From positions 64,033 to 128,032 of the forward strand of contig CAZREB010000014.1 of the NCBI GenBank assembly GCA_964599095.1: a stretch of 64,000 nucleotides of DNA, in the 5' to 3' direction. The stretch comes from an uncultured Bordetella sp. GTDB taxonomy: Bacteria; Pseudomonadota; Gammaproteobacteria; Burkholderiales; SG8-39. The translations under genes were made by a program, and so were the position numbers. Under the pieces are notes generated by a model, which was given only the letters and a program-made list of their open reading frames with translations, was not told the DNA's origin and ran no database searches. Positions 2,099-27,039 of this stretch are shown here, piece by piece (positions within the stretch are counted from its first letter, which is position 1; each line of letters begins with the position of its first letter).

Positions 2099-2530
2099 GT
2101 GACCGCGCTGAAGATTCCCATGCGATCGAGAGCTACCCGCCATATCCTCTGGAAACGCCGTTGGACGCTGATTGCGTCCTGGGCGGTGTTCTGGTTGCTG
2201 TCTGCCTTGGCGCCGTTTTGCAGCGGCTGGGCCGCGGCAATTGGTGCGGCGAGCAGTCATGCTGCGCATCACGCCGTGACGGTATCGGCCGACGATGATC
2301 ACGAACCGGCGCAAGACAAAGAACAATGCTGTCAAACCGACGTCGAAGCGTCCGCGCTTGAATCGAAATCGGAGCTCGCTTCTTCAATCGAGGGTGAGCT
2401 CCGACCGTGCGCGATCGTCGCACGGTCGATCGTCACGTTGGTGTCGACGTGCGATAGAAGTTACCGTGTCGAACCACCGTCGTGGCCTCCCCGACAGGTG
2501 TTCCAGGATACCCGCAGGCTCCGGATTTAA
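2099..2530 (+). CDS. small membrane-anchored Cys/His protein, paralog of 5956-6429 (CzcI/DUF2946-like class?)
   Basis: 143-aa ORF with one N-terminal TM containing VFWLLSALAPFC. The C-terminus PPSWPP...TRRLRI* is shared with the 5956-6429 product (APPSS...TRRLRI*). Confidence 0.4.
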   Translation: MTALKIPMRSRATRHILWKRRWTLIASWAVFWLLSALAPFCSGWAAAIGAASSHAAHHAVTVSADDDHEPAQDKEQCCQTDVEASALESKSELASSIEGELRPCAIVARSIVTLVSTCDRSYRVEPPSWPPRQVFQDTRRLRI

Positions 2531-2714: not shown

Positions 2715-3152
2715 GTGAGAGTCAGCGAAATCGCCAGGCTGGTCGGCGTGAAGCCGCACGTGGTGCGCTATTACGTGCGTGCGGGTTTGCTCGAGCCGCG
2801 GCGCACTGCCGGAAACGGCTACAAGAAGTTTTTGTACGAAGACGTGACGCGACTGCGATGCATCAGGGCGGCTCGCAGCGTGGGGATGTCGATCACCGAA
2901 ATCAGCGGCCTTCTGGATAAGGTGCGTAATGGTGGCAACCTGCACGCGGAGATGCGTGATCTGGTTTTGCGCAAGCACGCCGAATTGACGGCTCGCCACA
3001 AAGCGCTCGGCCAGACGCTCGAGCAGCTGTGCCGGCTGAGGGCGCTTTGCGAGGCGCGCGATCCCGTGTGCCGGGACCTGGACTCGCTGTGTGAAGTCTT
3101 GGAGCAGTCCGATCGATGCGCGCCGGAAGCTCTGAGTATTTCCGGGTTCTAG
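2715..3152 (+). CDS. MerR-family transcriptional regulator (effector unknown, Cys-rich C-terminus)
   Basis: GTG start gives MRVSEIARLVGVKPHVVRYYVRAGLL, the canonical MerR wHTH N-terminus. The C-terminal coiled coil carries five Cys. Confidence 0.8.
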   Translation: MRVSEIARLVGVKPHVVRYYVRAGLLEPRRTAGNGYKKFLYEDVTRLRCIRAARSVGMSITEISGLLDKVRNGGNLHAEMRDLVLRKHAELTARHKALGQTLEQLCRLRALCEARDPVCRDLDSLCEVLEQSDRCAPEALSISGF

Positions 3153-3169: not shown

Positions 3170-3200
3170 TTGACCTGACACTTGCACACAGGTTTGAAAT
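3170..3200 (+). promoter_or_regulatory. putative MerR-type promoter upstream of the cytochrome-porin gene
   Basis: TTGACC (3170-3175), a 19-nt spacer containing the dyad ACCTG-N11-CAGGT, then TGAAAT (3195-3200). A 19-bp spacer is the hallmark of MerR-activated promoters. A GGGAGG RBS precedes ATG 3229. Confidence 0.4.
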
Positions 3201-3228
3201 CAGTCCCAATCGAAATCAGGGAGGGGTC

Positions 3229-4581
3229 ATGCGAATCGACGAGCGCATCGGTTGGAGAACGGCAGGCGCGGTGATCGCGACTGTCATTGCGTGGATCATG
3301 GCGATTCCCGGCGCACAAGCCGTGCCCAGCATGGGCCGGCAAACCGGCTACGAGTGCGCCAAATGTCACACCGTGTTTCCCGAACTGACGCCGTTCGGCC
3401 GGCAATTCAAGCTCGGCGCGTTCGCCATGAGTTCGGCAAAATGGGACGAAAAGCCTTTGGTCGAAAGAATACCGGTTTCCGGGCTCGTGCAACTCTCGAG
3501 AACCAGCACGAAGAATACCAGCGCGGGCGGCGCGACGCCGGGGACGGACTTCGTGCGCGATCGAGAGACGGTCCTCCAGGGCGCGGGGCTCTACTACGGC
3601 GGCAAGATTACCGAGAAGTCCGGTGCCCTGATCCAGTACAACTATGACGGGATCGAGGAAAGATGGGGCATGGAAATGTTCGATGCCCGCTACGCCGACG
3701 GCACCTCTCTGGCGGGAAAGGAGTTGACCTACGGCGTTACGCTCAACAACAACCCGACAGTGTCGGACATCTATAACAGCACCTCGGCGTGGGGATTTCC
3801 GCATACGGGATCCGCGGCACGGCAGATGCCCGCAGCTACGATGATCGACATGACGCTCGCCAGCCAGGTGGGCGGGATAGGAATCTACGGCCTGTGGGAT
3901 GATTTGGTCTACGCCGAAGTCGCCGCCTACAGGACAGCGCGCCGCAGCGCCTTCCGGTTCATGGGGGCGGGCGTGCCGAAAGAGACGGTGCTGGATGGCA
4001 CGGCACCGTACTGGCGCCTTGCGTTGCAAGGGGAATCCGGGCCAAGCAGTTTTTCCGCCGGCGCCTACGGCATGGTCGCCAAGGTTCTCACCGATCGGGA
4101 CAACGCTTCACTGGGGAGCGACAGATTCCGCGATTTCGGAATCGACGGCTTTTACCAATATATCAAAGGCGACCATACCTTGTCGGCAAGTGCTACCCGA
4201 ATTCGCGAGAAGCAGACCTGGGGCACTTCGTTCGCCCAGGGCCTCGTCTCCAACCCAAGCGGCACCCTCAATACTTTTCGAGCAAGCCTTCACTACTACT
4301 ATATGCGCAAGTGGGGAGGGGGAGTGCAATACTTCCGTACGACCGGCAGTTCTGACACCCTGCGCTACAACACGGGCGACGCCGTGATGGGAAGCGCCAA
4401 CGACAGCCCTAACAGCAAGGGCTATATTGCCGAGATCAATTACCTTCCGATACAAAACATCAAGCTCGCCCTCAGGTATACCGCCTACCAGCAGTTCAAC
4501 GGAGCGTCGACCGACTATATGCCGGGCAGGAACGCATCCGACAACAACAACCTGTTTTTGCTAGGCTGGATATTGTTTTGA
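3229..4581 (+). CDS. Cyc2-like fused monoheme cytochrome c / outer-membrane beta-barrel porin
   Basis: Signal peptide (..PGAQA/VPS). A single CAKCH heme motif lies about 12 residues after the predicted cleavage site, in the context GRQTGYECAKCHTVFPELTPFGRQFKLGA. About 400 aa of alternating Gly/Tyr/Ser/Thr-rich sequence follow, ending ...LLGWILF* (terminal aromatic residue typical of OMPs). Confidence 0.65.
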   Translation: MRIDERIGWRTAGAVIATVIAWIMAIPGAQAVPSMGRQTGYECAKCHTVFPELTPFGRQFKLGAFAMSSAKWDEKPLVERIPVSGLVQLSRTSTKNTSAGGATPGTDFVRDRETVLQGAGLYYGGKITEKSGALIQYNYDGIEERWGMEMFDARYADGTSLAGKELTYGVTLNNNPTVSDIYNSTSAWGFPHTGSAARQMPAATMIDMTLASQVGGIGIYGLWDDLVYAEVAAYRTARRSAFRFMGAGVPKETVLDGTAPYWRLALQGESGPSSFSAGAYGMVAKVLTDRDNASLGSDRFRDFGIDGFYQYIKGDHTLSASATRIREKQTWGTSFAQGLVSNPSGTLNTFRASLHYYYMRKWGGGVQYFRTTGSSDTLRYNTGDAVMGSANDSPNSKGYIAEINYLPIQNIKLALRYTAYQQFNGASTDYMPGRNASDNNNLFLLGWILF

Positions 4582-4639
4582 CGATCGATCTTCGTCGATA
4601 TCGGAATTCAAACGGCAGGCGTCTGGAGGGAAAGCAACC

Positions 4640-4987
4640 ATGAATCTGCGACAGTTGAGGCACGGGCTCGGAAATGCGGCCGCGGCGGCGATCTTACTCG
4701 GCGGCTCGAATCACGCCGCGGCGCTCGATGCCGACGGGGTTCAGGCGCTGATGAGAAAAAGCGATTGCTTCAAATGCCACGCGGTAGACAAGAAGAAGGA
4801 CGGCCCGATGTACCGGGAAATCGCGGCCAAGCTCAAGGCCAAGCCGGATTCCGAACAGAAGCTTTACACTCATCTCACAACCAATCCCAAAGTGGAAGTC
4901 GACGGCAAGAAGGAAGATCACGTCGCCCTCAAGACCAAGAACGACGCGGACATCAAAGACGTGATCAAGTGGATTCTGTCCCGTTGA
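4640..4987 (+). CDS. periplasmic class I monoheme cytochrome c (c551/c552-like)
   Basis: 115 aa with a signal peptide. CFKCHAVDKKKDGPMYREIAAK resembles C-x-x-CH-x-(ID/VD)-x-K-x-VGP-x-Y-x-x-(V/I)A-x-K of cytochrome c551. Confidence 0.8.
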   Translation: MNLRQLRHGLGNAAAAAILLGGSNHAAALDADGVQALMRKSDCFKCHAVDKKKDGPMYREIAAKLKAKPDSEQKLYTHLTTNPKVEVDGKKEDHVALKTKNDADIKDVIKWILSR

Positions 4988-5240
4988 CCATTTCGCCCCG
5001 GTAAGGCCGCCCGCGAGAATCGCTACGAGGGGTCTGCGGGGTCCGGTCCTCAGGCGGCGATGTGCTGGCATTGTGTCCGGACAGCCCCGCCTTGAGTTCG
5101 AGCAGGCCGCCGCCCGCCAGATTGGGCAATCGCTCACGTTGTGGCGGAGTACTGTGGACCAGTGGAACGAGGCCGTGTTCAATCTCAGGTACGGTCATCC
5201 GCCGGGCGACGGGTCACGCGAATGGGGCGTACGGTAACAA

Positions 5241-5849: not shown

Positions 5850-5955
5850 GTAGCGTGCGAACCTTGCGCAAACGGCGCCGGGCGCGATGGACAGTGGCGG
5901 GCATCGAGATGCGGACTTGATTTCGATCAATCGATGCGCCCGATCAACGGCTAGA

Positions 5956-6429
5956 ATGCCCGGTATGTCAGTTGCAGTTCAAATTGGCGCGGCGACTCGC
6001 CTAGGCGCTTGGTTGCGAATCAGCGGAGTGGCGCGCGCGGGGCTGATCGTGGGCTGGCTGGTCTTCTGGCTGAATGCGGCGCTGTTTCCGTGCTGTGACG
6101 CGATGGCGGCGATCCTGAGCGGACATGCGGAGGGCGGGATGCGGCCGTCCTCGAGCGCGTCTTCATCGCCACATCCGGAATACGAAAATTCCGAATCCTC
6201 GGATCAATGCCCAGATGCGCCATGTGGCGAGAAGCTAGGCTCGGTGCCCGTCCCGGCGGGCAAGTTCGAAGTGAACCCGCCGGATCGTTCGCCGGCAGTC
6301 CGTATTGCCGCCGATTTGGCAGTCGCCATGCCCGTCGAGCACGTGTTTCGCGCGCCGAAAATCGGGGTTTCGCGCGCGCCCCCGTCTTCGCTGCGACACT
6401 ACCTGCGCACCCGCCGCCTGCGGATTTAG
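5956..6429 (+). CDS. small membrane-anchored Cys/His protein, paralog of 2099-2530
   Basis: TM segment LVFWLNAALFPCCDAM and His/Cys/acidic-rich middle (SSPHPEYENSESSDQCPDAPCGE). The C-terminus ...LRHYLRTRRLRI* has its last six residues identical to the 2099-2530 product. Upstream ATG 5887 is an alternative start. Confidence 0.4.
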   Translation: MPGMSVAVQIGAATRLGAWLRISGVARAGLIVGWLVFWLNAALFPCCDAMAAILSGHAEGGMRPSSSASSSPHPEYENSESSDQCPDAPCGEKLGSVPVPAGKFEVNPPDRSPAVRIAADLAVAMPVEHVFRAPKIGVSRAPPSSLRHYLRTRRLRI

Positions 6430-6586
6430 CCGCAGTTCCCATGGGATCTCAAAACCGCAACGCACTCGCGGTCCCAGGAGCCATCCGCTCGTTTCCTGCA
6501 ACCGGCCGCTTGTTCCAGTCTCGACTGACGGCGGATCGGTTCGAATCAATGATCAACCCGTTTGCAATCCAAAGGAAAATGCCATC

Positions 6587-7024
6587 ATGAAAACCTCGAT
6601 ACTGATTTCCGCAATTCTCGCCGCTACTTTGGCGGCGCCGATCGTTTCGGCGCAGGTGAAACCCGCGCCGGCGATGCCGTCGATGAATGCGGACGGCGAT
6701 AAACAGATGTCCGTGATGCAGGAGAACATGAAGAAGATGCAGCAACAGATGGAGAAGATCGGCGCGGCGAAGGACCCAAAGGAACGGCAAAAGCTCATGC
6801 AGGAGCATATGCAAACCATGACCGAAAGCATGAAGGCGATGCGCGGCATGGGCGGTCCGATGATGATGGACGACCGCAAAGGCGGCGGTATGATGGGCGG
6901 CATGAAGGACGGCGACATGAAGAAGCGCCAGGAAATGACCGAAAAGCGCATGGACATGATGCAGATGATGATGGAGCAGATGATGCAGCGCGAGCAGGCG
7001 AAGGATTCGATGCCGCATATGTGA
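6587..7024 (+). CDS. Met-rich periplasmic protein (putative Cu(I)/Ag(I)-binding)
   Basis: Signal peptide MKTSILISAILAATLAAPIVSA. Methionine content is extreme: MQENMKKMQQQMEK, GMGGPMMMDD, GGMMGGMKDGDMKK, MDMMQMMMEQMMQ. Confidence 0.7.
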   Translation: MKTSILISAILAATLAAPIVSAQVKPAPAMPSMNADGDKQMSVMQENMKKMQQQMEKIGAAKDPKERQKLMQEHMQTMTESMKAMRGMGGPMMMDDRKGGGMMGGMKDGDMKKRQEMTEKRMDMMQMMMEQMMQREQAKDSMPHM

Positions 7025-7162
7025 GCGGGAATCGCCGCCCTTTTGCATTGAACTCGCCTGGCTGATCTTCATGGCTGCGGTCGGCGAATGACTGCCCTTA
7101 GCGGATCCACGGGCGGCCGTCGGCTGCCTGCGGCCAGTCGCGCGACGGTCGCAAAGTGCCGA

Positions 7163-9076
7163 ATGAGGAGATACAGATCGGTGAAATCCTGTCCCTGGAT
7201 CGGGCGTGCTGCGTTTTTGGCATTGCTGTTTGGGCTGACGCATCTTCCGCCCGCCACTGGGCAGACGGACTCCGCAGAGCACGAATCCCATCATCCGGAA
7301 AAGGTCGCCGGACCCCATGCGGGGGGGGCTTCAGTCGGCGCGTCACCCGCCGATTCCGCCTCAGACCTTTCGGTCGCCGGGCCGGCCCGGGACGTCGGGG
7401 CGATGGGGGGCATGCAAAAAATGATGGAAGGAATGATGGGCGGAGGCAAGAGCGAGACTTATCCGCGCATGATGAGTCTTCCCGGCTCGACGCCCGAAAC
7501 GCGCTCCGAAGTGGAGCGTTCGGCCGAGAAGAGCATTCACGAAGGGACTGTTCTGCTGCGGGAAGCCCGCGAGCGCCTGGAGAAAGCGATCGAAGCCGGC
7601 GACCACGAAGGCGCGACAGGCGCGTTGCAGCAGACGCGCGACGCGATCGCGCGTTTGGAAAGCGGCGTTTCCTCGCACAGGGCGATACGCGAAGGCATTG
7701 CGCCGAAGGACCTCGCCCTGCGGTGGTACAAGCGCAATTTGGACCTGGCCGCAGCCGATCGCGCCGCTCCTGCGCATGGAATCTTCGGGTTGTCCTGGAT
7801 TCATTACCTGATGATGTCGATCCTCGTCGCGTCCGCCCTTATGACGCTCTGGATCTATCTGCATCGGGCGCGCCGCGTATCGGCCCTTCTCGAAAGACTG
7901 GCGAGCGGCCCGAAGGGAGGAGTCCCCGCGCGAGAATTTGCCGAGTCCGCGGTGGCGCCGAGCGCGACTGCGCAGGGCGTCCATCCGGACGCGGCTCCTT
8001 CCAGGTCGAATTCCTGGAGCGGCTTGCTGCAGGTGAAGCGGATTTTTCAGGAAACACCCCGGGTCAAGACATTCCGGCTCGCCGATCCCGCCGGCGGGCG
8101 GCTGCCGTTCAATTACCTGCCGGGGCAGTTCCTGACGCTCACCGTCGCGCCGAACGGGCAGGCGATCAAGCGTTCCTACACGATCGCGTCGTCCCCGACG
8201 CACCGGGATTACTGCGAAGTGACGGTGCGCCACGAAGATCGCGGAGCCGTTTCGGGTTATCTTCACGAACGCATCCGCGAGGGAGACGCGCTTCGGGTAA
8301 CGGCGCCATCCGGGAAGTTCACTTTCGACGGAAAGACCGGTCGCAGCATCGTGCTGATCGCGGGAGGCGTGGGCGTCACGCCGATGATGAGCGTGGTGCG
8401 CTACCTGACCGACCGCTCCTGGCCCGGCGATGTTTACCTCGTATACGGCTGCAAGGCCGACGACGATGTCATCTACCGCGAGGAGATCGAATATCTAGCG
8501 CGGCGGTACCCGAATTTCCATGTGACTCTGATTGCAGAGCGCGCGGGGCCAACGGGATGGAGTCATCGCGTCGGACGCATCACGCCGGGATTGCTAACGG
8601 AGTCGGTGCCCGACATTGCGTCGCGTCATGTGCACCTTTGCGGACCGGCGCCGATGATGGAAGCCGTCAGGCCGATGCTCGCATCGCTTGGGGTACCGGC
8701 GTCCGAGATCGAGACCGAGGTATTCATCGGCAAGGAGCGGCCGCAGCCGCTGCCGTCGCCCGGACCCCAGGCCGGAGCCGTGCAGGACGCGGATCTGCGG
8801 ACGGGGCCGTTGAGTGTCGCGAAGGCCACCTTCGAACGCTCGCGGAAGACGGCAGCGCTTCCACCAGGCAGGACCATACTCGAAGCCGCGGAAGACATTG
8901 GCGTGAACATCGAGTACTCATGCCGGGTGGGAACCTGTGGAACGTGCAAGGTGAAGCTGCTTGCCGGGACCGTGACAATGGATAGCGAGGAGGCTCTCGA
9001 ACCCGCCGACAAGGCGCTGCATCTGATCCTGGCGTGCCAGGCAAAGGCCACGAGCGATGTGTCGATCGACGCATAG
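7163..9076 (+). CDS. membrane-anchored FNR-like FAD/NAD(P)H oxidoreductase with C-terminal [2Fe-2S] ferredoxin domain and N-terminal periplasmic Met-rich domain
   Basis: Signal-like N-terminus, Met-rich stretch MGGMQKMMEGMMGGG, helical region, then a single TM (WIHYLMMSILVASALMTLWIYL) followed by HRARR (positive-inside rule). FAD motif RSYTIAS, NAD motif LIAGGVGVTPMMS, LCGPAPMM, then plant-type ferredoxin CRVGTCGTCKV...LACQ. Upstream ATG 7088 is an alternative start. Confidence 0.8.
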   Translation: MRRYRSVKSCPWIGRAAFLALLFGLTHLPPATGQTDSAEHESHHPEKVAGPHAGGASVGASPADSASDLSVAGPARDVGAMGGMQKMMEGMMGGGKSETYPRMMSLPGSTPETRSEVERSAEKSIHEGTVLLREARERLEKAIEAGDHEGATGALQQTRDAIARLESGVSSHRAIREGIAPKDLALRWYKRNLDLAAADRAAPAHGIFGLSWIHYLMMSILVASALMTLWIYLHRARRVSALLERLASGPKGGVPAREFAESAVAPSATAQGVHPDAAPSRSNSWSGLLQVKRIFQETPRVKTFRLADPAGGRLPFNYLPGQFLTLTVAPNGQAIKRSYTIASSPTHRDYCEVTVRHEDRGAVSGYLHERIREGDALRVTAPSGKFTFDGKTGRSIVLIAGGVGVTPMMSVVRYLTDRSWPGDVYLVYGCKADDDVIYREEIEYLARRYPNFHVTLIAERAGPTGWSHRVGRITPGLLTESVPDIASRHVHLCGPAPMMEAVRPMLASLGVPASEIETEVFIGKERPQPLPSPGPQAGAVQDADLRTGPLSVAKATFERSRKTAALPPGRTILEAAEDIGVNIEYSCRVGTCGTCKVKLLAGTVTMDSEEALEPADKALHLILACQAKATSDVSIDA

Positions 9077-9114
9077 CGGCCGGCGGCGCCTCGCCAGGTA
9101 TCCCGGGATTGCAA

Positions 9115-9867
9115 ATGCAGCCTGATCGGTCCGCGGTCACGGGATGGATCCTGCTCCTGCTGGCATTGTGGACGGGTTTTCTTATGCATCAATCTCCTCG
9201 GTTCCCCGGCAGTCCGTGGGGCGGGGTGTTCGGAGTGTCCGCGGCGGTCCTGCTGCTGGTGCCGCTCGGATATTCCGCTCTGAAGCGTCTGGAGTGGTTG
9301 AAGGAGCGGATTGGCGCTCGGCTGTCTCTCGCAAGAGGGCTGGCCTGGCATGTGAACGCCAGCATCGGCGGGGCGTTTCTCGCCGTTTTGCATTCCGGAC
9401 ACCGGTTCGACAGTTGGCTGGGAATTTCTTTGATGGCGGCGATGCTGCTTGCGATACTGAGCGGCTACGCCGGCCGATATTTCCTCGGTTTTCTAACGCA
9501 AGACCTGAAGGCGCGCGAGGACGCGCTCGAAGCCCTGCAATCCGACTACGACCGGCTCGCGGCCGAGATCGCCGTACATCCCGCCCGGGAATTCGAGGGT
9601 ACCGGGACTTTCGGCCTGCGCAGCCGGATTGCCGAGGCGATCGGCCGTCCGTCCGCGCCGAAAAGACAGGAGGACCCCGGACGGCGCGTGTTCGAGATTG
9701 CCGAGGCCATGGTCGACACCGAATATGCAATCGTCGCCGACGAGACCCTGAAGCGCAAATTGCGGATTTGGCTCGCAGTTCACATCGCGGTCTCGGTTTC
9801 CTTTTATGGACTGCTTGCGCTGCATGTCTGGGGCGGGATCCAGTTCGGTCTGCGGTGGTTCTCATAG
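9115..9867 (+). CDS. five-TM membrane protein with two intramembrane His pairs (putative di-heme b, ferric-reductase/NOX-like)
   Basis: Predicted TM3 is WHVNASIGGAFLAVLH and TM5 is VHIAVSVSFYGLLALH. Each has two His exactly 14 positions apart, the geometry of bis-His di-heme transmembrane domains. The start lies 38 nt after the reductase gene. Confidence 0.5.
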   Translation: MQPDRSAVTGWILLLLALWTGFLMHQSPRFPGSPWGGVFGVSAAVLLLVPLGYSALKRLEWLKERIGARLSLARGLAWHVNASIGGAFLAVLHSGHRFDSWLGISLMAAMLLAILSGYAGRYFLGFLTQDLKAREDALEALQSDYDRLAAEIAVHPAREFEGTGTFGLRSRIAEAIGRPSAPKRQEDPGRRVFEIAEAMVDTEYAIVADETLKRKLRIWLAVHIAVSVSFYGLLALHVWGGIQFGLRWFS

Positions 9868-9868
9868 C

Positions 9869-10612
9869 GTGGGCGGACGGCGGCTTATCGTGGTCTTGCT
9901 AGCATTTGGCGCACTCTCGTTGGCCGCTGGATCGGACTTGGCCGGGGAGGATTCGCTCATGCGCGCGGTTTGGCGAAGGGCCGTCATGCCCGGTGCGTTG
10001 TCCGGATCTCACGCTTTCCTTGCCGACGACTGCGCTGCCTGCCACGTTCCGGTAAATGGGGTCGATCCTGCGCGTTGCGTCGCATGTCATGCCGACAATG
10101 GTGCACTTCTGCAGCGGCAGCCGACGGCGTTTCATGCCGACATTCAGGCCTGCTCGGGGTGCCACGTCGAGCACCAGGGCACCGTGCGAATGCCGACGAC
10201 CATGAATCACGCGCATCTGGCACGCACCGGTTTGCAGCTGGCTGCCGCCGAATCGCAGGAAGAGCGCGCGCGGTTGCTCGTCCCTGGGCGCGCCGGTGCG
10301 GGAGAATCGCTGCTGAAATGCGCTAGCTGTCACGCGACCAAAGACCGCCATCAAGGCTATTTCGGCGCCGACTGCGGCCAGTGCCATGCGACCGCGGTGT
10401 GGACGATTTCCGATTTCCGCCATCCGTCGCCGCGATCGACCGAATGCGCCCAGTGCCACAAACCGCCGCCGAGTCACGCCATGATGCATTTCTCGATGGT
10501 CTCCGCGGCGGTTGCGCGCCAACCGAAGGCCGAGGCGGGCCAGTGCTACCTCTGCCACCAAACGACTTCCTGGAACGATATCAAAGGCGTCGGCTGGTTC
10601 AAGCATCACTAG
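9869..10612 (+). CDS. periplasmic heptaheme c-type cytochrome (c3/c7-like)
   Basis: Seven CxxCH motifs: CAACH, CVACH, CSGCH, CASCH, CGQCH, CAQCH, CYLCH. GTG 9869 gives the signal-like N-terminus VGGRRLIVVLLAFGALSLAAG, 1 nt after the upstream stop. Confidence 0.8.
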   Translation: MGGRRLIVVLLAFGALSLAAGSDLAGEDSLMRAVWRRAVMPGALSGSHAFLADDCAACHVPVNGVDPARCVACHADNGALLQRQPTAFHADIQACSGCHVEHQGTVRMPTTMNHAHLARTGLQLAAAESQEERARLLVPGRAGAGESLLKCASCHATKDRHQGYFGADCGQCHATAVWTISDFRHPSPRSTECAQCHKPPPSHAMMHFSMVSAAVARQPKAEAGQCYLCHQTTSWNDIKGVGWFKHH

Positions 10613-15991: not shown

Positions 15992-16651
15992 TTACCGCCA
16001 GAGCCGCGGCTTTTGATGGGCAAATCGCGCGACGACCGCTGCCGATCCGCCGATCAGAAACCCGGCCACGACATCGGCAGGAAAGTGAGCGCCCGCGGCG
16101 ATGCGCGACCACCCGATCCATCCGGCGTACGACAGCAAGGCGGCCCGGAATCCTCGTGCGCGGAAGGGCCAGAGTATTGCGACCACCAACATTGCATTGG
16201 CCGCATGGCCGCTCGGAAACGAGTACACGAGCTCCGGTTCTCCGACAATTCGCGCGATTTTCGGGAGAGCCACGAGCGGGCGCGGAAAATCCGCGACCAC
16301 TTTCAGGAGAAAAACCGCAAGCCACGCGAGCAGGATTGCAACGAGGACGCCCGATGCTCGAGCGCGAATTGTCGACGCCGCGGTTTCGGCGCCAAGCGGA
16401 GTCCTCATGCCCTTGGACCAAACATGGATAACGGTTAGTACCAGTAGCGCACCCCAACGACTGCCAAACACATCGCCCAACCATACCAGCGAAACCAGAG
16501 AATCGGGCGTCGCCTGATTGATGGCAGCGAACCAGGCCGCATTCAGGCCGTTCCAGTCGTAGAGAAGACGCTTCAATGCCGGCGCAGCAATCTCAACCCG
16601 TTGAACACCACCAGCAGGCTCGCGCCCATGTCGGCGAAAACCGCCATCCAC
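15992..16651 (-). CDS. PAP2-family phosphatase (PbrB/undecaprenyl-pyrophosphatase-like)
   Basis: PAP2 motifs PSGHAANA and SRIAAGAHFPADVVAG. The longest ORF starts at ATG 16651 but overlaps the ATPase 3' end by 79 nt. TTG 16576 would overlap the ATPase stop as TTGA, which looks like translational coupling. Confidence 0.75.
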   Translation of the reverse strand: MDGGFRRHGREPAGGVQRVEIAAPALKRLLYDWNGLNAAWFAAINQATPDSLVSLVWLGDVFGSRWGALLVLTVIHVWSKGMRTPLGAETAASTIRARASGVLVAILLAWLAVFLLKVVADFPRPLVALPKIARIVGEPELVYSFPSGHAANAMLVVAILWPFRARGFRAALLSYAGWIGWSRIAAGAHFPADVVAGFLIGGSAAVVARFAHQKPRLWR

Positions 16652-18741
16652 ATCGTCGCGTGGCCGGCAAAGGTCAATACGAGGAACACAAGCTTTATGC
16701 CGAGCGCAAGCGCTATGTTCTGCCGGAGAATTGCGGCGGTTGAGCGCGAAAGGCGAACGAACGCGGGGATCTTGCGAAGATCGTCATCCATCAGCGCCAC
16801 GTCCGCCGTTTCGATGGCAGTGTCCGTGCCGGCGGCGCCCATCGCGAATCCGATATCCGCGCGGGCAAGCGCGGGCGAGTCATTTATGCCGTCGCCCACC
16901 ATGCCCACCTGCCCGCCGCCGGGTTGGTTCAAAAGCCCCTCGATGATCGAGAGTTTGTCTGCCGGCAGAAGGTCGCCCCTGGCCTCGTCGATTCCGACTT
17001 CGCGCGCAATCGATCGAGCCGTATGCACGTTGTCGCCGGTGAGCATCAGCGTCCGGACGCCTAGCGAATGCAGGTCGGCGATTGCCTGACGGCTCGTTTC
17101 GCGAACCGTATCGGCCACGCCGAATATCGCCAGCACTTTTTCGCCGTCCATTAGCAGGACCGCAGTTTTTCCGTCGCCTTCCAGCCGCGCGAGCCTGGTT
17201 TCGATTTCTCCGGAACAGAGCCCCTTTTCTTCGACCAGCCGGTGATTGCCCAGCCAGTACGCGGTGCCGTCGATGCTGCCCTGAACGCCGCGGCCAGGGA
17301 GCGCCGAGAAGTCGTCCACGATTCGCAATTGCATCGACGCCGCGGCTTTGGCGATGGACCGGGATACCGGGTGATCCGAGCGCGCCGCGAGACTGGCCGC
17401 GATTTGGCGGGCCGCCTCCGAATCCGCGGCGAGCGCGATGAAATCCGTCTGCGCCGGCTCGCCACGGGTGATCGTTCCGGTCTTGTCCATGGCAAGGGTC
17501 GTCAGCTTTCGCCCGCCTTCGAGGTACGCGCCCCCTTTGATCAGGATGCCCCTGCGGGCGGCCGCGGCCAGCCCGCTGACGATTGTGACCGGCGTGGAGA
17601 TCACGAGCGCGCACGGGCAGGCGATCACCAGCAGCACGAGGGCTTTGTAAATCCAGTCGAGCCAGGCGCCGCCGCCGATGAGCGGCGGCACGACCGCCAC
17701 CAGGATGCTAATGGCGAAAATCGCCGGCGTGTAGATCCGGGAAAACCGATCGACGAATCGCTGCGTCGGTGCCCGGCTGCCTTGCGCCGTCTCGACCGCC
17801 TGAATGATCCTGGAGAGCGTCGAATTGCCCGCGGATGCGCTCACGCGGTACTCGATCGAGCCCGATTGGTTGATCGTTCCGGCGAAAACATCGTCTCCTT
17901 CGGCCTTCTCTATCGGCAGGCTTTCGCCGGTGATCGGCGCCTGGTTCACCGTCGAACTGCCTTTGGTCACCCGGCCATCCAGCGCGATCCGCTCACCCGG
18001 TCGCGCGCGAACGATGGCACCCACCTTCACCCCCGCCGCTGGCATCTCGAGCCAGCCGCCATCCGGCCCCTGTATGGTCGCCGTCTCTGGCGCGAGTTCC
18101 ATCAGCCCGCGAATGGCATTGCGAGCGCGGTCGAGCGACCCGGCTTCGATCACTTCGGCGAGAGCGAAAAGGACCATCACCATGGCCGCCTCAGGCCAGT
18201 GGCCGATGAGAATCGCGCCGGTCACCGCGATCGCCATCAGCGCATTGATGTTCAGGTCTCGATTGCGGAGCGCGATCAGCCCCTTCTTGTACGTAGGCAA
18301 CCCTCCAAGAACAATTGCGATGAGCGCAAGTGAAACGACGGGCCAATCGTTGCCGCCATTGATCCAGTACACGGCCTCCGCGAGCGATGCGGCGACTCCG
18401 GCAGTCGCCATGCGCCCCCAGCGCTTGATCGACGATTGCGCGTGTCCTGCGACTGCCGGAGTGGCCGTCCTGCCGGCCGATTCTCCGTCGCCGTCGAGGC
18501 GTCGGGCCCGCATTCCGATCGCCGCCAGCGCCTCATCGACCTGTTCATGCGAGCCGAACCGGTAACCGACCACAAGCGTGCGCTGAATCAGATTGAAATC
18601 CAGAGTCTCGACGCTGGGCATTGCGGACAACTTGCTGCGAATCACGCCCTCTTCGGTCGGGCAATCCATGTTTTCGATGAAATAGAAAGCCTTGCGACCG
18701 GCAGCCTCGGGTGGAATCGCGTGCGATTTGGGATTGTTCAT
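16573..18741 (-). CDS. heavy-metal P1B-type ATPase (Zn/Cd/Pb class, CadA/ZntA/PbrA-like)
   Basis: N-terminal HMA variant ENMDCPTEE, CPC in ACPCALVISTP, phosphorylation site DKTGTIT, SDHPVS and GDGINDSPAL. Start taken at MNNPKSH (18741); the ORF-track start 18849 would run through the promoter. Confidence 0.9.
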   Translation of the reverse strand: MNNPKSHAIPPEAAGRKAFYFIENMDCPTEEGVIRSKLSAMPSVETLDFNLIQRTLVVGYRFGSHEQVDEALAAIGMRARRLDGDGESAGRTATPAVAGHAQSSIKRWGRMATAGVAASLAEAVYWINGGNDWPVVSLALIAIVLGGLPTYKKGLIALRNRDLNINALMAIAVTGAILIGHWPEAAMVMVLFALAEVIEAGSLDRARNAIRGLMELAPETATIQGPDGGWLEMPAAGVKVGAIVRARPGERIALDGRVTKGSSTVNQAPITGESLPIEKAEGDDVFAGTINQSGSIEYRVSASAGNSTLSRIIQAVETAQGSRAPTQRFVDRFSRIYTPAIFAISILVAVVPPLIGGGAWLDWIYKALVLLVIACPCALVISTPVTIVSGLAAAARRGILIKGGAYLEGGRKLTTLAMDKTGTITRGEPAQTDFIALAADSEAARQIAASLAARSDHPVSRSIAKAAASMQLRIVDDFSALPGRGVQGSIDGTAYWLGNHRLVEEKGLCSGEIETRLARLEGDGKTAVLLMDGEKVLAIFGVADTVRETSRQAIADLHSLGVRTLMLTGDNVHTARSIAREVGIDEARGDLLPADKLSIIEGLLNQPGGGQVGMVGDGINDSPALARADIGFAMGAAGTDTAIETADVALMDDDLRKIPAFVRLSRSTAAILRQNIALALGIKLVFLVLTFAGHATMWMAVFADMGASLLVVFNGLRLLRRH

Positions 18742-18775
18742 GGTGTGAAAGCGACCTCCGGATTCGATTCCCGCG

Positions 18776-18806
18776 ATTGAACATCCTGTAGTGGCTACAG
18801 AGTCAA
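18776..18806 (-). promoter_or_regulatory. MerR-type (CadR/PbrR/ZntR-like) promoter-operator of the ATPase, divergent from the regulator gene
   Basis: The minus strand reads TTGACT-ctgtagccactacaggatg-TTCAAT. The spacer is 19 bp and contains the palindrome CTGTAG-N3-CTACAG (18786-18800). Confidence 0.75.
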
Positions 18807-18847
18807 GCGCTAAAATGGTGCTCGTGAGCAAATTCTGCGCGAATACC

Positions 18848-19330
18848 ATGAAGATCGGTGAACTGGCAATTTCTACCCGTACCCCGGTCGAAACGATCCG
18901 GTTCTACGAACGCGAGGGACTGATGCTTTCCCCGTCGCGCAGCGGCGGCAATTTCCGCATCTACTCCGGCGAGCACATTGAACGCCTCACTTTCATCCGC
19001 CGCTGCAGATCGCTGGACATGACGCTCGATGAAGTGCGGGCCTTGCTGCTGCTCAAGGATTCGCCCGCGGGGGATTGCGGTGACGTGAGCGCGGTTCTGG
19101 ACGCGCACATAGGCCACGTGGATGCGCGCATCATGGAGCTCGAGGTCCTCAGCGGGCAGCTCGCGCGTCTTCGAGCGCGGTGCCTGGAGGCGCGCCGGGC
19201 GGAGGACTGCGGGATCCTGAAAGAACTATCCCGTGCGCCGAGTGCTTCGCGCGTGCAGCCGGCCGGGCATGTCGGCGGTGCTCATCGCCATTCTGCCAAC
19301 CGCAAGAGCCCCGCTTCGGGCAAACGATGA
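18848..19330 (+). CDS. MerR-family metal-responsive regulator (CadR/PbrR/ZntR subgroup)
   Basis: MKIGELAISTRTPVETIRFYEREGLM wHTH. Cys residues at the dimerisation helix (DCGDV, RARCLE, EDCGIL) are typical of CadR/PbrR. It is divergent from the ATPase. Confidence 0.85.
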   Translation: MKIGELAISTRTPVETIRFYEREGLMLSPSRSGGNFRIYSGEHIERLTFIRRCRSLDMTLDEVRALLLLKDSPAGDCGDVSAVLDAHIGHVDARIMELEVLSGQLARLRARCLEARRAEDCGILKELSRAPSASRVQPAGHVGGAHRHSANRKSPASGKR

Positions 19331-19743: not shown

Positions 19744-21051
19744 ATGTTTCGTGCATTGCGCGCATCCCCGATGCGCTGCGCCGGCATTTTCCGGCGATCG
19801 GGACTATTGATCTTCCTTTTCGCGTCGCAGGCCGCTGCGCAAACGCTGACGCTGGAGGCGGCTATGCGGATAGCCGCAGCGGCCAACCCGGCGCTGCGCG
19901 CAGCGGCTGCCGAAATGTACGCGGCGCAAGGTCAGGCGACCGAGAGCGGCTACGCGCTTTGGAACAATCCTTCGGTATCGCTTGACGGAACGCGCCGTGC
20001 GCTGCCGCAGGCGGGCGCACCCGAGCAGCGCGTGCGCGAGTGGGGTTTCGGTCTCGCGCAGACTTTCGAAGTTGCCGGCCAGCAGGGATTTCGGCGACAA
20101 GCCGCGAACGCCGAGTTGGAGGCGGTGCGGGCGAACGTGGCTGAATTTCGCAGCCAGCTCGCCGCGGACGTGGCCGACCGGTTCATCCGGCTGCTCGCAG
20201 TGCAGTTGCGAATCGCCGCCGAACACGAAAACCTGAGGCTCGTCGAGGAGGCGGCGGCCGCGATCGGCAAACGCGTGGCGGCGGGAGAAACGAGCAAGCT
20301 GCAAGGCAACGTGTCGAGCGTCGAAGCCGAGCGCGCGCGCAACCAGCTTGCGCAGCTCGATGAAGCGATGATCCAGGCGCGCGCCGACCTGGCCTCGCTT
20401 CTGCAGCTTCCGCCGAATGCGCATCCGGTGGCCGCGGGTTCCCTGACGAGCGCGGCGCGTTACGGGCGCGAGTCGCTGCTCGAATCGGCGCGGCGCCGCC
20501 GTGTGCTCGCCGTGCTCGCACTGCGGGAGAACGCCGCACAAAACCGGCTGGCGCTCGAGCGTGCCGCAGCCAGGCCCGACGTGACCCTTGGCGTCAATAT
20601 GGGCCGCGAAGGGTTGCCCGGTTTGCGCGAAAGCACGCTGGGCGTGGCGGTATCGGTGCCGCTGCCGCTGTTTCGCAAAAACGAGTCGGGCATCGGACGG
20701 GCGCTCACAGGCCTGGAACAGGCGCGGGTCGAGCGCGAGCGCGTGACGCGGGAAGTGCGCGCCGCCGTCCTCGCCCAGTGGGACCGCGTCGAGAACCTGC
20801 GCGCCCGCGAGGCGCGCCTTGCGGCGAAGGTGCTCCCGCTGCTGGAGGACAACCTGCGCCTGTCCAAGCGGGCATTCGAGGAAGGCGAAATCGGGCTGTC
20901 CGACCTGCTGCTCGTCAACCGGCAGGTCGTGGACGCCCGCAGGGAGATGCTCGAGGCCCAGACCGACCTGCGGCTCGCGCAAGTCGCGCTCGAACGCTCC
21001 GCCGGCTGGGATTTCGAGTCTGCCGGAACTAAAAAGGATGGGACGCAATGA
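19744..21051 (+). CDS. czcC: outer-membrane efflux protein, CzcC/TolC family
   Basis: 435 aa with a two-repeat coiled-coil OEP pattern. It overlaps the downstream adaptor gene (ATGA) in the czcCBA order. Confidence 0.8.
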   Translation: MFRALRASPMRCAGIFRRSGLLIFLFASQAAAQTLTLEAAMRIAAAANPALRAAAAEMYAAQGQATESGYALWNNPSVSLDGTRRALPQAGAPEQRVREWGFGLAQTFEVAGQQGFRRQAANAELEAVRANVAEFRSQLAADVADRFIRLLAVQLRIAAEHENLRLVEEAAAAIGKRVAAGETSKLQGNVSSVEAERARNQLAQLDEAMIQARADLASLLQLPPNAHPVAAGSLTSAARYGRESLLESARRRRVLAVLALRENAAQNRLALERAAARPDVTLGVNMGREGLPGLRESTLGVAVSVPLPLFRKNESGIGRALTGLEQARVERERVTREVRAAVLAQWDRVENLRAREARLAAKVLPLLEDNLRLSKRAFEEGEIGLSDLLLVNRQVVDARREMLEAQTDLRLAQVALERSAGWDFESAGTKKDGTQ

Positions 21052-22217: not shown

Positions 22218-22226
22218 GGAGCGGAC

Positions 22227-27027: not shown

Positions 27028-27039
27028 GGCGATTTTCGA

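What the first reader, a model, noticed from the sequence alone, without database searches (positions are those of the whole stretch)
3170..4987. Cyc2-like fused cytochrome-porin with a partner monoheme cytochrome, apparently under MerR-type control
The 450-aa product has a signal peptide and exactly one CxxCH about 12 residues after the predicted cleavage site, in the context GRQTGYECAKCHTVFPELTPFGRQFKLGA. A long beta-strand-like region follows, ending in a terminal Phe. This is the architecture of Cyc2, the outer-membrane Fe(II) oxidase of acidophilic and neutrophilic iron oxidisers. Here it sits behind a MerR-family regulator. Its promoter (TTGACC-19 nt with dyad-TGAAAT) has the over-long spacer typical of MerR activation. 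This suggests metal-induced expression of an outer-membrane redox protein in an organism that is probably not an iron-oxidising specialist.
Basis: partly seen in the sequence, partly recalled or inferred. Interest (0 to 1): 0.7.

Follow-up and report, generated by a model that had tools for sequence, protein, structure and literature searches.

The report
Metal-island Cyc2 cytochrome-porin with MtoD partner
This is a genuine relative of Cyc2, the outer-membrane iron-oxidising cytochrome-porin, but from a distinct branch that sits in metal-resistance islands, pairs with a different periplasmic cytochrome, and has its own MerR-type regulator and promoter, so it may handle metal stress (possibly copper) rather than feed on iron.

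Summary
ORF 3229-4581 encodes a 450-aa secreted protein with one CxxCH (CAKCH) 11 residues after an AQA|V cleavage site and a C-terminal Phe. It models as a 16-strand barrel.

The Cyc2 reading is supported. The protein aligns over residues 29-450 with the rus-operon Cyc2 of Acidithiobacillus (29% identity, E=3e-40; profile-profile probability 100%, E=6e-53). It carries a variant of the Cyc2 signature (AVPSMGRQT-x3-CxxCH-x3-PEL; F->M, A->G).

The 115-aa partner is a homologue of MtoD, the bis-His shuttle of Sideroxydans (PDB 4XXL, E=3e-23), not of Cyc1.

The protein belongs to a monophyletic subclade with two features:
- Partners are MtoD-like (9/18 loci) and NapC/NirT tetrahaem (8/18), against 0/71 in other Cyc2-like loci.
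- Heavy-metal, mostly copper, resistance genes lie nearby in 13/18 loci against 7/71.

This window has lost the NapC gene.

The TTGACC-19 nt-TGAAAT promoter is conserved in five loci, four of them directly behind the same rare MerR subtype. The pattern occurs only twice in the window. The other copy is a CadR-type ATPase promoter.

The substrate (Fe(II) or Cu(I)) and the direction of electron flow are inferred, not shown.

The parts
2715..3152 (+). MerR-family regulator of a rare subtype (145 aa from GTG 2715; a gene caller prefers a start at 2562). C112 and C126 are invariant.
   Evidence: Pfam MerR_1 5.5e-18 and MerR-DNA-bind 2e-10. It scores below the cut-offs of the CueR, ZntR, MerR and CadR equivalogs. 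Only 5 relatives were found, and C112 and C126 are invariant among them. The same subtype lies directly upstream of Cyc2-like genes in L014 and L116.
3170..3200 (+). MerR-type promoter: -35 TTGACC (3170-3175), 19-nt spacer (3176-3194), -10 TGAAAT (3195-3200). The short dyad is ACCTG 3173-3177 / CAGGT 3189-3193.
   Evidence: Read directly from the sequence. The pattern occurs only twice in the window, both copies beside MerR-family genes. It is the only conserved block in the alignment of five loci. A standard 16-18-nt sigma-70 scan does not find it.
3229..4581 (+). Cyc2-family fused cytochrome-porin, 450 aa. Signal peptide: residues 1-31 (nt 3229-3321). Haem domain with the AVPSMGRQT motif, CAKCH (nt 3355-3369) and PEL. 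16-strand barrel: residues 83-449. C-terminal Phe.
   Evidence: BLASTP against the Acidithiobacillus rus-operon Cyc2 gives 29% identity over residues 29-450, E=3e-40. hhalign gives probability 100%, E=5.8e-53. AF2 gives pLDDT 89.6 and 16 strands. Foldseek matches OmpC/OmpF porins. dN/dS is 0.11.
4640..4987 (+). MtoD-like periplasmic monohaem class I cytochrome c, 115 aa. CFKCH lies at nt 4766-4780 and the candidate distal His94 at nt 4919-4921.
   Evidence: PDB 4XXL (MtoD) E=2.6e-23. C43, C46, H47 and H94 are invariant in 10 orthologues. They match MtoD C43/C46/H47/H95 (PMC4412085). dN/dS is 0.16.
5076..5213 (+). C-terminal remnant of a DUF3141 gene. It marks the place where relatives carry the NapC/NirT tetrahaem gene, which has been lost here.
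   Evidence: tblastn gives 54% identity to residues 544-589 of the intact DUF3141 gene at 219-2006. L013 has the order cyc2-cytc-NapC-VTT and L014 has cyc2-cytc-NapC. No NapC match was found anywhere in the window.

Best explanation
The locus encodes a two-gene outer-membrane-to-periplasm electron conduit under its own MerR-type switch.

**Shown by sequence and structure comparison**
- The 450-aa protein is a Cyc2-family fused cytochrome-porin. It has one c-type haem on a short N-terminal domain attached to a 16-strand barrel.
- The 115-aa protein is an MtoD-type bis-His periplasmic cytochrome.
- Both genes are under purifying selection.
- They follow a promoter with a 19-nt spacer. That promoter is conserved together with a rare MerR subtype.

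**Inferred mechanism**
- The MerR protein sits on the over-long spacer. When it binds its effector, it realigns the -35 and -10 elements and switches the operon on. The effector is probably a thiophilic metal held by the conserved Cys112/(Cys119)/Cys126.
- The porin-bound haem then takes single electrons from a dissolved reduced metal ion that enters the barrel. Fe(II) is the only substrate demonstrated for the family. Cu(I) is the candidate suggested by the copper-resistance genes around the close relatives.
- The haem passes the electrons to the MtoD-like shuttle.
- In relatives the shuttle feeds a NapC/NirT (ImoA/CymA-like) quinone-pool cytochrome. In this genome that gene has been deleted, so the shuttle would have to use another acceptor, such as a bc1 complex or a terminal oxidase.
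- The likely role is metal-stress relief rather than lithotrophic growth.

**Confidence by layer**
- Cyc2-family and MtoD-family identity: about 0.95.
- MerR-type control of this promoter: about 0.7.
- A metal-stress role: about 0.55.
- Cu(I) as the substrate: about 0.3.
For: **Family identity**
- Searches show full-length homology to the Acidithiobacillus Cyc2 that precedes cyc1 and rus (loci, read).
- Searches show the signature motif. The clade consensus is AVPSMARQT and the PxL motif is present.
- Searches show the 16-strand barrel.
- Searches show MtoD homology with conserved bis-His ligands.

**A distinct subclade**
- The NJ tree places the window in one monophyletic group.
- That group carries MtoD-like partners in 9/18 loci and NapC partners in 8/18, against 0/71 elsewhere.
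- It has full-length heavy-metal genes nearby in 13/18 loci against 7/71 (Fisher p=3e-7; 12/15 against 5/24 when flanks are at least 8 kb, p=6e-4).
- The neighbours include CopA-type ATPases, CusB-like adaptors, CopK, DUF411/CopG and CusRS.

**Control**
- Searches show the conserved 31-nt promoter in the window, L116, L115, L014 and L013.
- The only other copy of the pattern in the window is the divergent CadR/PbrR-ATPase promoter, which has a perfect dyad. It serves as an internal positive control.
- Synonymous divergence between these loci is 0.8-1.4, so the promoter conservation is not simply a matter of recent ancestry.

**Island setting**
- GC3 is lower in the first 30 kb.
- That stretch carries a ZntA/CadA-type ATPase, CadR, CzcCBA-like genes and a YHS protein.
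Against: - No biochemical or expression data exist for any member of this subclade.
- The strict published Cyc2 motif (PxFAR) is not met in this protein.
- The nearest efflux genes in this window are of the Zn/Cd/Pb type, and those metals have no redox chemistry a haem could use. The copper link therefore rests on relatives.
- Genes in islands can hitch-hike together without a shared function.
- The reference proteins for the context count came from clade loci, and the clade loci are not phylogenetically independent.
- The regulator matches no known metal-sensor equivalog. Its Cys spacing (C-x6-C-x6-C or C-x13-C) is unlike CueR, ZntR or MerR. Its dyad has only 5-bp arms.
- The regulator gene is co-directional with its target, not divergent as in classic MerR systems.
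- The NapC/NirT partner is missing here, so the conduit may be incomplete.
- In L115 the same regulator and promoter precede a haem-less protein.
Confidence: 0.55

Rival explanations
1. This is an ordinary energy-yielding Fe(II) oxidase. The protein works as Cyc2 does in iron oxidisers, feeding Fe(II) electrons to the respiratory chain for lithotrophic or mixotrophic growth. The metal island and the MerR gene are incidental neighbours.
For: - Fe(II) oxidation is the only activity shown for the family (PMC8406198).
- The partners MtoD and NapC/ImoA belong to an Fe(II)-oxidation pathway in Sideroxydans.
- Homology to the rus-operon Cyc2 is clear.
Against: - The partner set and the metal-gene neighbourhood are specific to this subclade.
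- The dedicated MerR-type promoter co-varies with the gene.
- No carbon-fixation or terminal-oxidase genes lie in the operon or within the 64 kb examined.
- The island has foreign composition.
- No MerR-family Fe(II) sensor is known. This point rests on my own knowledge.
Confidence: 0.2
2. The conduit runs outward. Quinol electrons pass through NapC/NirT and the MtoD-like cytochrome to the Cyc2-like haem. That haem reduces an oxidised metal at the cell surface or in the barrel. One example would be Cu(II) to Cu(I) for export by Cus-type pumps. Others would be Fe(III) or another oxidant.
For: - NapC/NirT proteins such as CymA normally oxidise quinol, and ImoA supports outward current in Shewanella.
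- Relatives pair the gene with Cus-type pumps, which handle Cu(I). The Cus specificity for Cu(I) rests on my own knowledge.
Against: - All characterised Cyc2 proteins act as oxidases with potentials near or above +200 mV.
- MtoD at +155 mV is a poor reductant.
- Making more Cu(I) would be harmful unless it were tightly coupled to export.
- This window lacks the NapC gene yet keeps the other two genes intact and under purifying selection.
Confidence: 0.12
3. This copy is a decaying remnant. The deletion that removed NapC/NirT has uncoupled the module, and the two remaining genes no longer have a function in this organism.
For: - A DUF3141 gene fragment sits where NapC lies in the two closest relatives.
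- No NapC gene is present in the 64 kb.
Against: - Both ORFs are intact. They keep all invariant family residues and show dN/dS of 0.11-0.16.
- The promoter is intact.
- L007 also has the MtoD-like gene without an adjacent NapC.
- MtoD is thought to have several possible acceptors.
Confidence: 0.08
4. It is a plain diffusion porin whose CxxCH has no redox role.
For: The best structural matches are general porins. There is no Pfam or NCBIfam hit.
Against: - The CxxCH and about 30 flanking residues are the most conserved part of the family.
- The bona fide Acidithiobacillus Cyc2 also has no Pfam hit.
- A cytochrome gene follows the porin gene in most loci.
Confidence: 0.02

Closest known systems
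[quoted passage not shown]
   Same: - Architecture: signal peptide, a single CxxCH about 11 residues into the mature protein, a PxL motif 4 residues after it, a 16-strand barrel and an aromatic C-terminus.
- Homology: 29-31% identity over the whole mature length. That is similar to the identities reported between A. ferrooxidans Cyc2 and other members of its cluster (26-30%).
   Different: - The motif has Met and Gly where Cyc2 has Phe and Ala (PSMGRQT against PSFARQT).
- It is followed by a monohaem MtoD-like cytochrome, not the dihaem c4 Cyc1.
- There are no rusticyanin or cox genes.
- It has a MerR-type promoter.
- It comes from a neutrophile-like betaproteobacterial MAG.
Canonical-motif Cyc2 homologues of soil and freshwater Proteobacteria (AVPSFARQTG; Ralstonia, Caballeronia and Acidiphilium plasmids, and many metagenome contigs)
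   Same: They are 39-46% identical and have the same architecture. They form the radiation in which the window's clade nests.
   Different: - They are usually followed by a dihaem cytochrome of about 210 aa.
- They rarely lie next to metal-resistance genes (7/71).
- None has an MtoD-like or NapC partner (0/71).
Mto pathway of Sideroxydans lithotrophicus ES-1 (MtoA-MtoB-MtoD-ImoA/CymA)
   Same: - The periplasmic partner is an MtoD homologue with the same haem ligands.
- Relatives add a NapC/NirT tetrahaem protein in the position of ImoA.
   Different: - The outer-membrane component is a monohaem Cyc2-type fusion, not the decahaem MtoA inside the 26-strand MtoB.
- In this window the NapC/NirT gene is absent.
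CueR/CadR-type MerR activators with 19-20-bp spacer promoters, and the periplasmic Cu(I) oxidases and oxidoreductases of copper resistance (CueO/PcoA, CopG/DUF411)
   Same: - The promoter geometry is the same as that of the CadR-type promoter in this window.
- The regulator has the MerR HTH and dimerisation helix, with Cys residues at the C-terminal end.
- Relatives lie beside CopG/DUF411, CopK, CusRS, CusCBA and CopA-type ATPases.
   Different: - The regulator is below the cut-off of every known sensor equivalog and has an unusual Cys spacing.
- Its gene is co-directional with the target.
- The candidate oxidase is a haem protein that would need no O2, unlike the multicopper oxidases. That activity is untested.

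Membership tests
Cyc2 fused cytochrome-porin (criteria of Keffer et al. 2021, PMC8406198) | Signal peptide and a single CXXCH close to the mature N-terminus | tested here: met
   There is an AQA|V cleavage site and one CAKCH at residues 43-47.
Cyc2 fused cytochrome-porin (criteria of Keffer et al. 2021, PMC8406198) | Length of at least 365 aa | tested here: met
   The protein is 450 aa.
Cyc2 fused cytochrome-porin (criteria of Keffer et al. 2021, PMC8406198) | AXPXFAR[Q/K][T/Y] motif upstream of the CXXCH (the screen used PXFAR[Q/K][T/Y]) | tested here: inconclusive
   The window has AVPSMGRQT. A, P, R, Q and T are in register and at the right distance, but F is replaced by M and A by G, so the strict pattern fails. 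The clade consensus is AVPSMARQT. Clade members L043, P0070 and P0112 and all more distant homologues have PSFARQT. The source paper notes that the motif differs between clusters.
Cyc2 fused cytochrome-porin (criteria of Keffer et al. 2021, PMC8406198) | PXL motif 4 residues after the CXXCH | tested here: met
   The sequence reads CAKCH-TVF-PEL. P51 and L53 are invariant in 120 homologues.
Cyc2 fused cytochrome-porin (criteria of Keffer et al. 2021, PMC8406198) | 16-stranded beta-barrel porin fused to the cytochrome domain | tested here: met
   The AF2 model has pLDDT 89.6 and pTM 0.85, with 16 strands between residues 83 and 449. The top Foldseek matches are 16-strand OmpC/OmpF porins, E about 4e-8. 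The haem is not modelled.
Cyc2 fused cytochrome-porin (criteria of Keffer et al. 2021, PMC8406198) | Sequence similarity (blastp E of 1e-5 or better) to a reference Cyc2 | tested here: met
   Compared with the Cyc2 of the A. ferrianus p1MG rus operon (L018:3127-4584), E=3e-40 at 29% identity over residues 29-450. The profile-profile comparison gives E=5.8e-53. The reference was identified by its position upstream of cyc1 and rusticyanin.
Cyc2 fused cytochrome-porin (criteria of Keffer et al. 2021, PMC8406198) | Score above cut-off with a FeGenie Cyc2 cluster HMM, and placement in Cluster 1, 2 or 3 | not testable with these tools
   The HMMs and the figshare alignment are not on hand, and no Cluster 1 or Leptospirillum-type sequences could be fetched. 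Only the relationship to the Acidithiobacillus-type group was tested.
Cyc2 fused cytochrome-porin (criteria of Keffer et al. 2021, PMC8406198) | Covalent haem, outer-membrane location and Fe(II) oxidation activity | not testable with these tools
   This needs an experiment.
MtoD-type class I cytochrome c | Sequence similarity to MtoD (PDB 4XXL) | tested here: met
   E=2.6e-23 over residues 12-114. The identity of 4XXL as MtoD was confirmed in PMC4412085.
MtoD-type class I cytochrome c | Bis-His haem ligation (His of the CXXCH plus a distal His, with no Met ligand) | tested here: met
   C43, C46, H47 and H94 are invariant in 10 orthologues. MtoD uses C43, C46, H47 and H95. There is no conserved Met in the distal region. 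The ligation itself is inferred.
MtoD-type class I cytochrome c | Encoded in an mtoAB (decahaem plus porin) cluster | tested here: not met
   There are no MtoA or MtoB genes here. It follows a Cyc2-type gene in the window and in 9 of the 18 clade loci.
MerR-type metal-responsive activator and its promoter | N-terminal MerR HTH plus a coiled-coil dimerisation region | tested here: met
   Pfam MerR_1, MerR and MerR-DNA-bind all match.
MerR-type metal-responsive activator and its promoter | Target promoter with an over-long (19-20 bp) spacer between -35 and -10 | tested here: met
   The 19-nt spacer is conserved in 5 loci. The geometry is the same as in the CadR-type promoter at 18806.
MerR-type metal-responsive activator and its promoter | Dyad-symmetric operator inside the spacer | tested here: inconclusive
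   The arms have only 5 bp (ACCTG-N11-CAGGT). They are kept in the window, L115 and L116, with 4/5 and 3/5 positions kept in L014 and L013.
MerR-type metal-responsive activator and its promoter | Membership of a known sensor subfamily (CueR, ZntR, MerR, CadR/PbrR, SoxR) | tested here: not met
   The best score is CueR at 62 bits against a cut-off of 147. All the others are also below their cut-offs. The Cys pattern is C112-(C119)-C126.
MerR-type metal-responsive activator and its promoter | Effector-dependent binding and activation | not testable with these tools
   This needs EMSA or footprinting and reporter assays.
NapC/NirT (CymA/ImoA-like) inner-membrane tetrahaem partner | A gene for a 4-haem NapC/NirT protein of about 200 aa in the operon | tested here: not met
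   It is absent from the whole window. It is present in L004, L005, L006, L013, L014, L035, L036 and L037.

The most novel reading that the evidence does not exclude
This Cyc2 subclade may be a haem-based, O2-independent oxidase for periplasmic or porin-lumen Cu(I), or another soft redox-active metal. On this reading it was recruited into copper and heavy-metal resistance islands. It is switched on by a dedicated MerR-type sensor. It sends the electrons to the quinone pool through MtoD-like and ImoA-like cytochromes. That would do anaerobically what the multicopper oxidases CueO and PcoA do with oxygen.
Probability: 0.25. Interest if true: 0.8.

Novelty: new variant of a known kind. Interest (0 to 1): 0.55.

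Why it matters
Cyc2 is used as the marker gene for microbial iron oxidation in genomes and metagenomes. The field itself says that the function of the many homologues in organisms not known to oxidise iron is uncertain.

This locus defines a recognisable subclade by four features:
- the motif AVPSM[AG]RQT;
- MtoD-like and NapC/NirT partners;
- a metal-resistance neighbourhood, mostly copper;
- in part of the clade, a private MerR regulator and promoter.

For this subclade the iron-energy reading is doubtful, and a metal-stress role can be tested directly with a three-gene cassette and one regulator. If the role is confirmed, there are three consequences:
- Cyc2 hits in surveys would have to be read differently.
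- Copper or metal homeostasis would gain a haem-based oxidase.
- The outer-membrane modules (Cyc2 or MtoAB) and the periplasmic and inner-membrane modules (Cyc1, or MtoD plus ImoA) of electron conduits would be shown to have been swapped in evolution.

The strict motif filter used to build the reference Cyc2 tree would have excluded most of this clade.

Tried and rejected
**Searches that found nothing useful**
- Pfam and NCBIfam give no family for the 450-aa protein. This is uninformative, because the true Acidithiobacillus Cyc2 has no Pfam hit either.
- The PDB sequence search gives nothing.
- The supplements of the Cyc2 reference paper hold no sequences. I therefore reached a reference Cyc2 through rusticyanin. 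I checked the rusticyanin sequence against PDB 1CUR and used it to fetch rus operons with 10-kb flanks.
- Literature searches found no paper linking Cyc2 to copper or metal resistance, or describing Cyc2 with NapC or MtoD/ImoA partners. The library is limited to open-access text.
- A search for NapC/NirT, DUF411, CopK and CusRS in the window found none.
- The standard sigma-70 scan does not pick up the promoter because it allows only 16-18-nt spacers.
- Rfam finds only one tRNA in the window.

**Ideas tested and dropped**
- The partner cytochrome is not Cyc1. BLASTP finds only the haem motif.
- The long N-terminal extension of the regulator is probably not real. It is not conserved in sequence.

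**Limits of what I could find**
- The MerR homologue search returned only 6 proteins, so the Cys conservation rests on few sequences.
- The NuoD search places the organism only as an uncultured betaproteobacterium of the Burkholderiales type.
Full report

Yes. ORF 3229-4581 (+) encodes 450 aa.
- It has a typical signal peptide ending AQA|V.
- It has one CxxCH (CAKCH, nt 3355-3369) 11 residues into the mature protein.
- The rest of the protein is long and strand-rich, and it ends in ...LGWILF.

Fifty-eight nucleotides downstream and behind a GGAGGG, ORF 4640-4987 encodes a 115-aa Pfam Cytochrom_C protein with one CFKCH. Upstream, 2715-3152 is a MerR-family regulator. The sequence TTGACC, a 19-nt spacer and TGAAAT lie at 3170-3200.

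The haem site is not a chance motif. The database holds more than 3600 homologues. In all 120 listed homologues the CxxCH and about 30 flanking residues are the best conserved part.

**2. Is it Cyc2?**

Pfam, NCBIfam and PDB sequence searches return nothing. That is uninformative, because a genuine Cyc2 also has no Pfam family.

The published definition (Keffer et al. 2021, PMC8406198) lists these features:
- a signal peptide and one CXXCH;
- an AXPXFAR[Q/K][T/Y] motif upstream of the CXXCH;
- a PXL motif 4 residues downstream;
- a 16-strand porin;
- a length of at least 365 aa;
- blastp similarity to a reference Cyc2.

The window protein reads AVPSMGRQT-GYE-CAKCH-TVF-PEL. Register and spacing are right and five motif positions match, but F is replaced by M and A by G. 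The clade consensus is AVPSMARQT, and some members have the canonical PSFARQT.

An AlphaFold model built on 120 homologues has pLDDT 89.6 and shows 16 strands. Its best PDB matches are 16-strand general porins.

No reference Cyc2 sequence was on hand, so I reached one through rusticyanin. My recalled rusticyanin sequence matched PDB 1CUR exactly. I used it to fetch Acidithiobacillus rus operons with 10-kb flanks. About 5.4 kb upstream of rus, each full operon has an ORF of about 485 aa (...ALPSFARQTGWSCAACHTSYPQLTPMGRMFKL...LAWIAY). A dihaem Cyc1 gene follows it.

BLASTP of the window protein against this Cyc2 gives 29% identity over residues 29-450, E=3e-40. The profile-profile comparison gives probability 100% and E=5.8e-53 over 432 columns. 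That identity is in the range reported between A. ferrooxidans Cyc2 and other members of its own cluster (26-30%).

The protein is therefore a true Cyc2-family member by homology and architecture. It carries a variant signature that the strict motif filter of the reference tree would have removed.

**3. The partner cytochrome**

It is not Cyc1. Its best solved relative is PDB 4XXL (E=2.6e-23). This is MtoD, the bis-His class I periplasmic shuttle of the Mto Fe(II)-oxidation pathway of Sideroxydans lithotrophicus ES-1 (PMC4412085).

C43, C46, H47 and H94 are invariant in ten orthologues. They correspond to MtoD C43, C46, H47 and H95. No distal Met is conserved.

**4. A distinct subclade**

I examined two sets of loci:
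- contigs of eight homologues and of the two closest ones;
- 80 metagenome loci found with the family alignment.

Homologues that are 39-46% identical carry the canonical AVPSFARQTG motif. They are typically followed by a dihaem cytochrome of about 210 aa, as in cyc2-cyc1.

The loci that are at least about 50% identical form one monophyletic group in a neighbour-joining tree rooted on Acidithiobacillus (a distance tree without support values). Within this group:
- 9 of 18 loci, plus the window, have the MtoD-like gene.
- 8 of 18 have a four-haem NapC/NirT gene of about 200 aa (Pfam 1e-64) next to it.
- The corresponding counts in the other loci are 0 of 71 for both.

This pairing is the periplasmic and inner-membrane half of the Mto pathway (MtoD plus ImoA/CymA) joined to a Cyc2-type outer-membrane protein.

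The clade also sits among heavy-metal genes:
- 13 of 18 loci have at least one full-length RND pump component, P1B ATPase, DUF411/CopG or CopK within the flanks, against 7 of 71 elsewhere (Fisher p=3e-7).
- With flanks of at least 8 kb the counts are 12/15 against 5/24 (p=6e-4).

Where the metal type can be read, it is mostly copper. There are CopA-type ATPases with YHS/HMBD domains, CusB-like adaptors (one with a CusF domain), CopK, DUF411 and CusRS.

Three caveats apply to these counts. The reference proteins came from clade loci. The loci are not independent. Resistance islands gather unrelated genes.

I found no paper that describes this association.

**5. This window's copy**

The first 30 kb or so have lower GC3 (0.73-0.79) than the rest (0.84-0.92; nuo operon, tpiA, secG). 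This suggests an acquired island.

Besides the Cyc2 locus, the island carries:
- a ZntA/CadA-type ATPase (16573-18849, minus strand);
- a divergent CadR/PbrR-type regulator (159 bits against a cut-off of 151);
- CzcCBA-like genes (19744-25328);
- a YHS-domain protein;
- a third MerR-like ORF.

A CusS-like two-component pair lies just upstream of the window on the same contig.

The NapC/NirT gene is absent from all 64 kb. L013 (83% identical) has the order cyc2-cytc-NapC-VTT, and L014 (77% identical) has cyc2-cytc-NapC. In that position the window has a 46-codon remnant of a DUF3141 gene (5076-5213), followed by the VTT gene. A rearrangement has therefore removed NapC.

The remaining genes are intact and constrained. 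dN/dS is 0.11 for the Cyc2-like gene, 0.16 for the MtoD-like gene and 0.28 for the MerR gene, at dS 0.8-1.4.

NuoD places the organism among uncultured Betaproteobacteria/Burkholderiales MAGs (87-90% to named hits). Nothing in the window points to an iron-oxidising specialist, but the window alone cannot exclude one.

**6. MerR-type control**

The regulator is a rare subtype. Only five relatives were found, at 55-62% identity, and none is named. All known sensor equivalogs score far below their cut-offs. C112 and C126 are invariant, and C119 is present in four of the six sequences. These residues sit where MerR-family proteins bind metals, but their spacing matches no characterised sensor.

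The same subtype lies directly upstream of Cyc2-like genes in L014 and L116. In L115 it lies upstream of a haem-less secreted protein.

In all of these loci, and in L013 where no MerR gene is adjacent, the gene is preceded by CTTGACCTGAC-N-GCACAGGTTTGnAAT with exactly 19 nt between the hexamers. This is the only conserved block of the intergenic region, despite near-saturated synonymous divergence.

In the window the pattern TTGAC[CT]-N19-TnnnWT occurs only twice on both strands. One copy is here. The other is at 18806 (minus strand), between the CadR-type regulator and its ATPase, with a perfect CTGTAG/CTACAG dyad. That copy serves as a built-in positive control for the geometry.

The dyad at the Cyc2 promoter is weak (5-bp arms). 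The regulator gene is co-directional with its target rather than divergent. Control is therefore well supported by comparison but remains untested.

**7. Mechanism**

Shown:
- the family identities, the architecture and the conserved haem ligands;
- the conserved promoter and its linkage to the regulator;
- the clade-specific partners and neighbourhood;
- the loss of NapC in this window.

Inferred:
- The regulator activates the promoter when it binds a thiophilic metal.
- The porin-bound haem oxidises a dissolved reduced metal ion. Fe(II) is the candidate by family precedent and Cu(I) by context.
- The MtoD-like shuttle carries the electrons inward, to a NapC/ImoA-like protein in relatives and to another acceptor here.

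Rivals:
- plain lithotrophic Fe(II) oxidation;
- outward electron flow that reduces a metal;
- a decaying remnant;
- a non-redox porin.

The evidence for and against each rival is given in the Rival explanations section.

**8. Verdict**

- The partner cytochrome is MtoD-like.
- The Cyc2 signature is a variant.
- The metal link is a property of a whole subclade and points mainly to copper.
- This copy lacks the NapC/NirT gene.

It is a new variant of a known kind. It is of moderate to high interest because it makes the open question of what Cyc2 homologues do outside iron oxidisers directly testable.

Noticed in passing
window 5076-5213 (+): A remnant of the last ~46 codons of a second DUF3141 gene (54% identical to the end of the intact copy at 219-2006). 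It lies between the MtoD-like gene and the VTT/DedA gene, exactly where the closest relatives have a NapC/NirT gene.
   Followed up: yes
window 2099-2530 (+) and 5887-6429 (+): Two paralogous small membrane proteins. Both end in RRLRI and share a W-VFWL-SAL-P-C block. Neither has a Pfam or NCBIfam family. One precedes the MerR gene and the other precedes a Met-rich protein.
   Followed up: partly
window 6584-10612 (+): A second, unexplained redox module with four genes. They are a Met-rich secreted protein (6584-7024), an FNR-like FAD/NAD/2Fe-2S reductase with a Met-rich N-terminus and a membrane segment (7088-9076), a membrane protein with no known family (9034-9867), and a cytochrome with seven CxxCH (9806-10612). 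The module was not found next to other Cyc2-like loci.
   Followed up: partly
window 18776-18806 (-), between 16573-18849 (-) and 18791-19330 (+): A textbook MerR-type promoter, TTGACTCTGTAGCCACTACAGGATGTTCAAT. It has a 19-nt spacer and a perfect CTGTAG/CTACAG dyad. It lies between a CadR/PbrR-type regulator and a ZntA/CadA-type P-type ATPase, and CzcCBA-like genes (19744-25328) and a YHS-domain protein follow.
   Followed up: partly
window about 27034-27384 (+): A third MerR-family reading frame, 36% identical to the CadR-type regulator over 117 residues. Its target is unknown.
   Followed up: no
window 1-30000 against 31000-64000: Third-position GC content of genes is 0.73-0.79 in the first 30 kb and 0.84-0.92 in the rest (nuo operon, tpiA, secG). 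This suggests that the metal and cytochrome region is an acquired island.
   Followed up: partly
L115:1660-2955: The same rare MerR subtype (62% identical) and a near-identical 31-nt promoter precede a haem-less secreted protein with a coiled-coil-like N-terminus, not a Cyc2-like gene. The regulon of this regulator may therefore be wider than Cyc2.
   Followed up: partly
L008:4553-4936, L009:3734-4093, L013:3613-3975, L014:2683-3048, L041 about 1157-1444: A lipoprotein of about 120 aa recurs just upstream of Cyc2-like genes of the clade. It has a GCATE lipobox and the conserved blocks ADHEEIA..YE and HCENLAR.Y. It was not looked for in the window.
   Followed up: no
L008:6379-7146, L039, L041, L042 (downstream of the Cyc2-like gene): A second sub-architecture occurs within the clade. 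A one-haem membrane protein of about 260 aa (Pfam Aq_1264_TM on record) and a monohaem cytochrome of about 100 aa replace the MtoD-like/NapC pair.
   Followed up: no
L010 (Caballeronia plasmid pSBC1_3) 6942-9959: [quoted passage not shown] An Acidiphilium cryptum conjugative plasmid and an A. ferrooxidans plasmid also carry homologues.
   Followed up: partly
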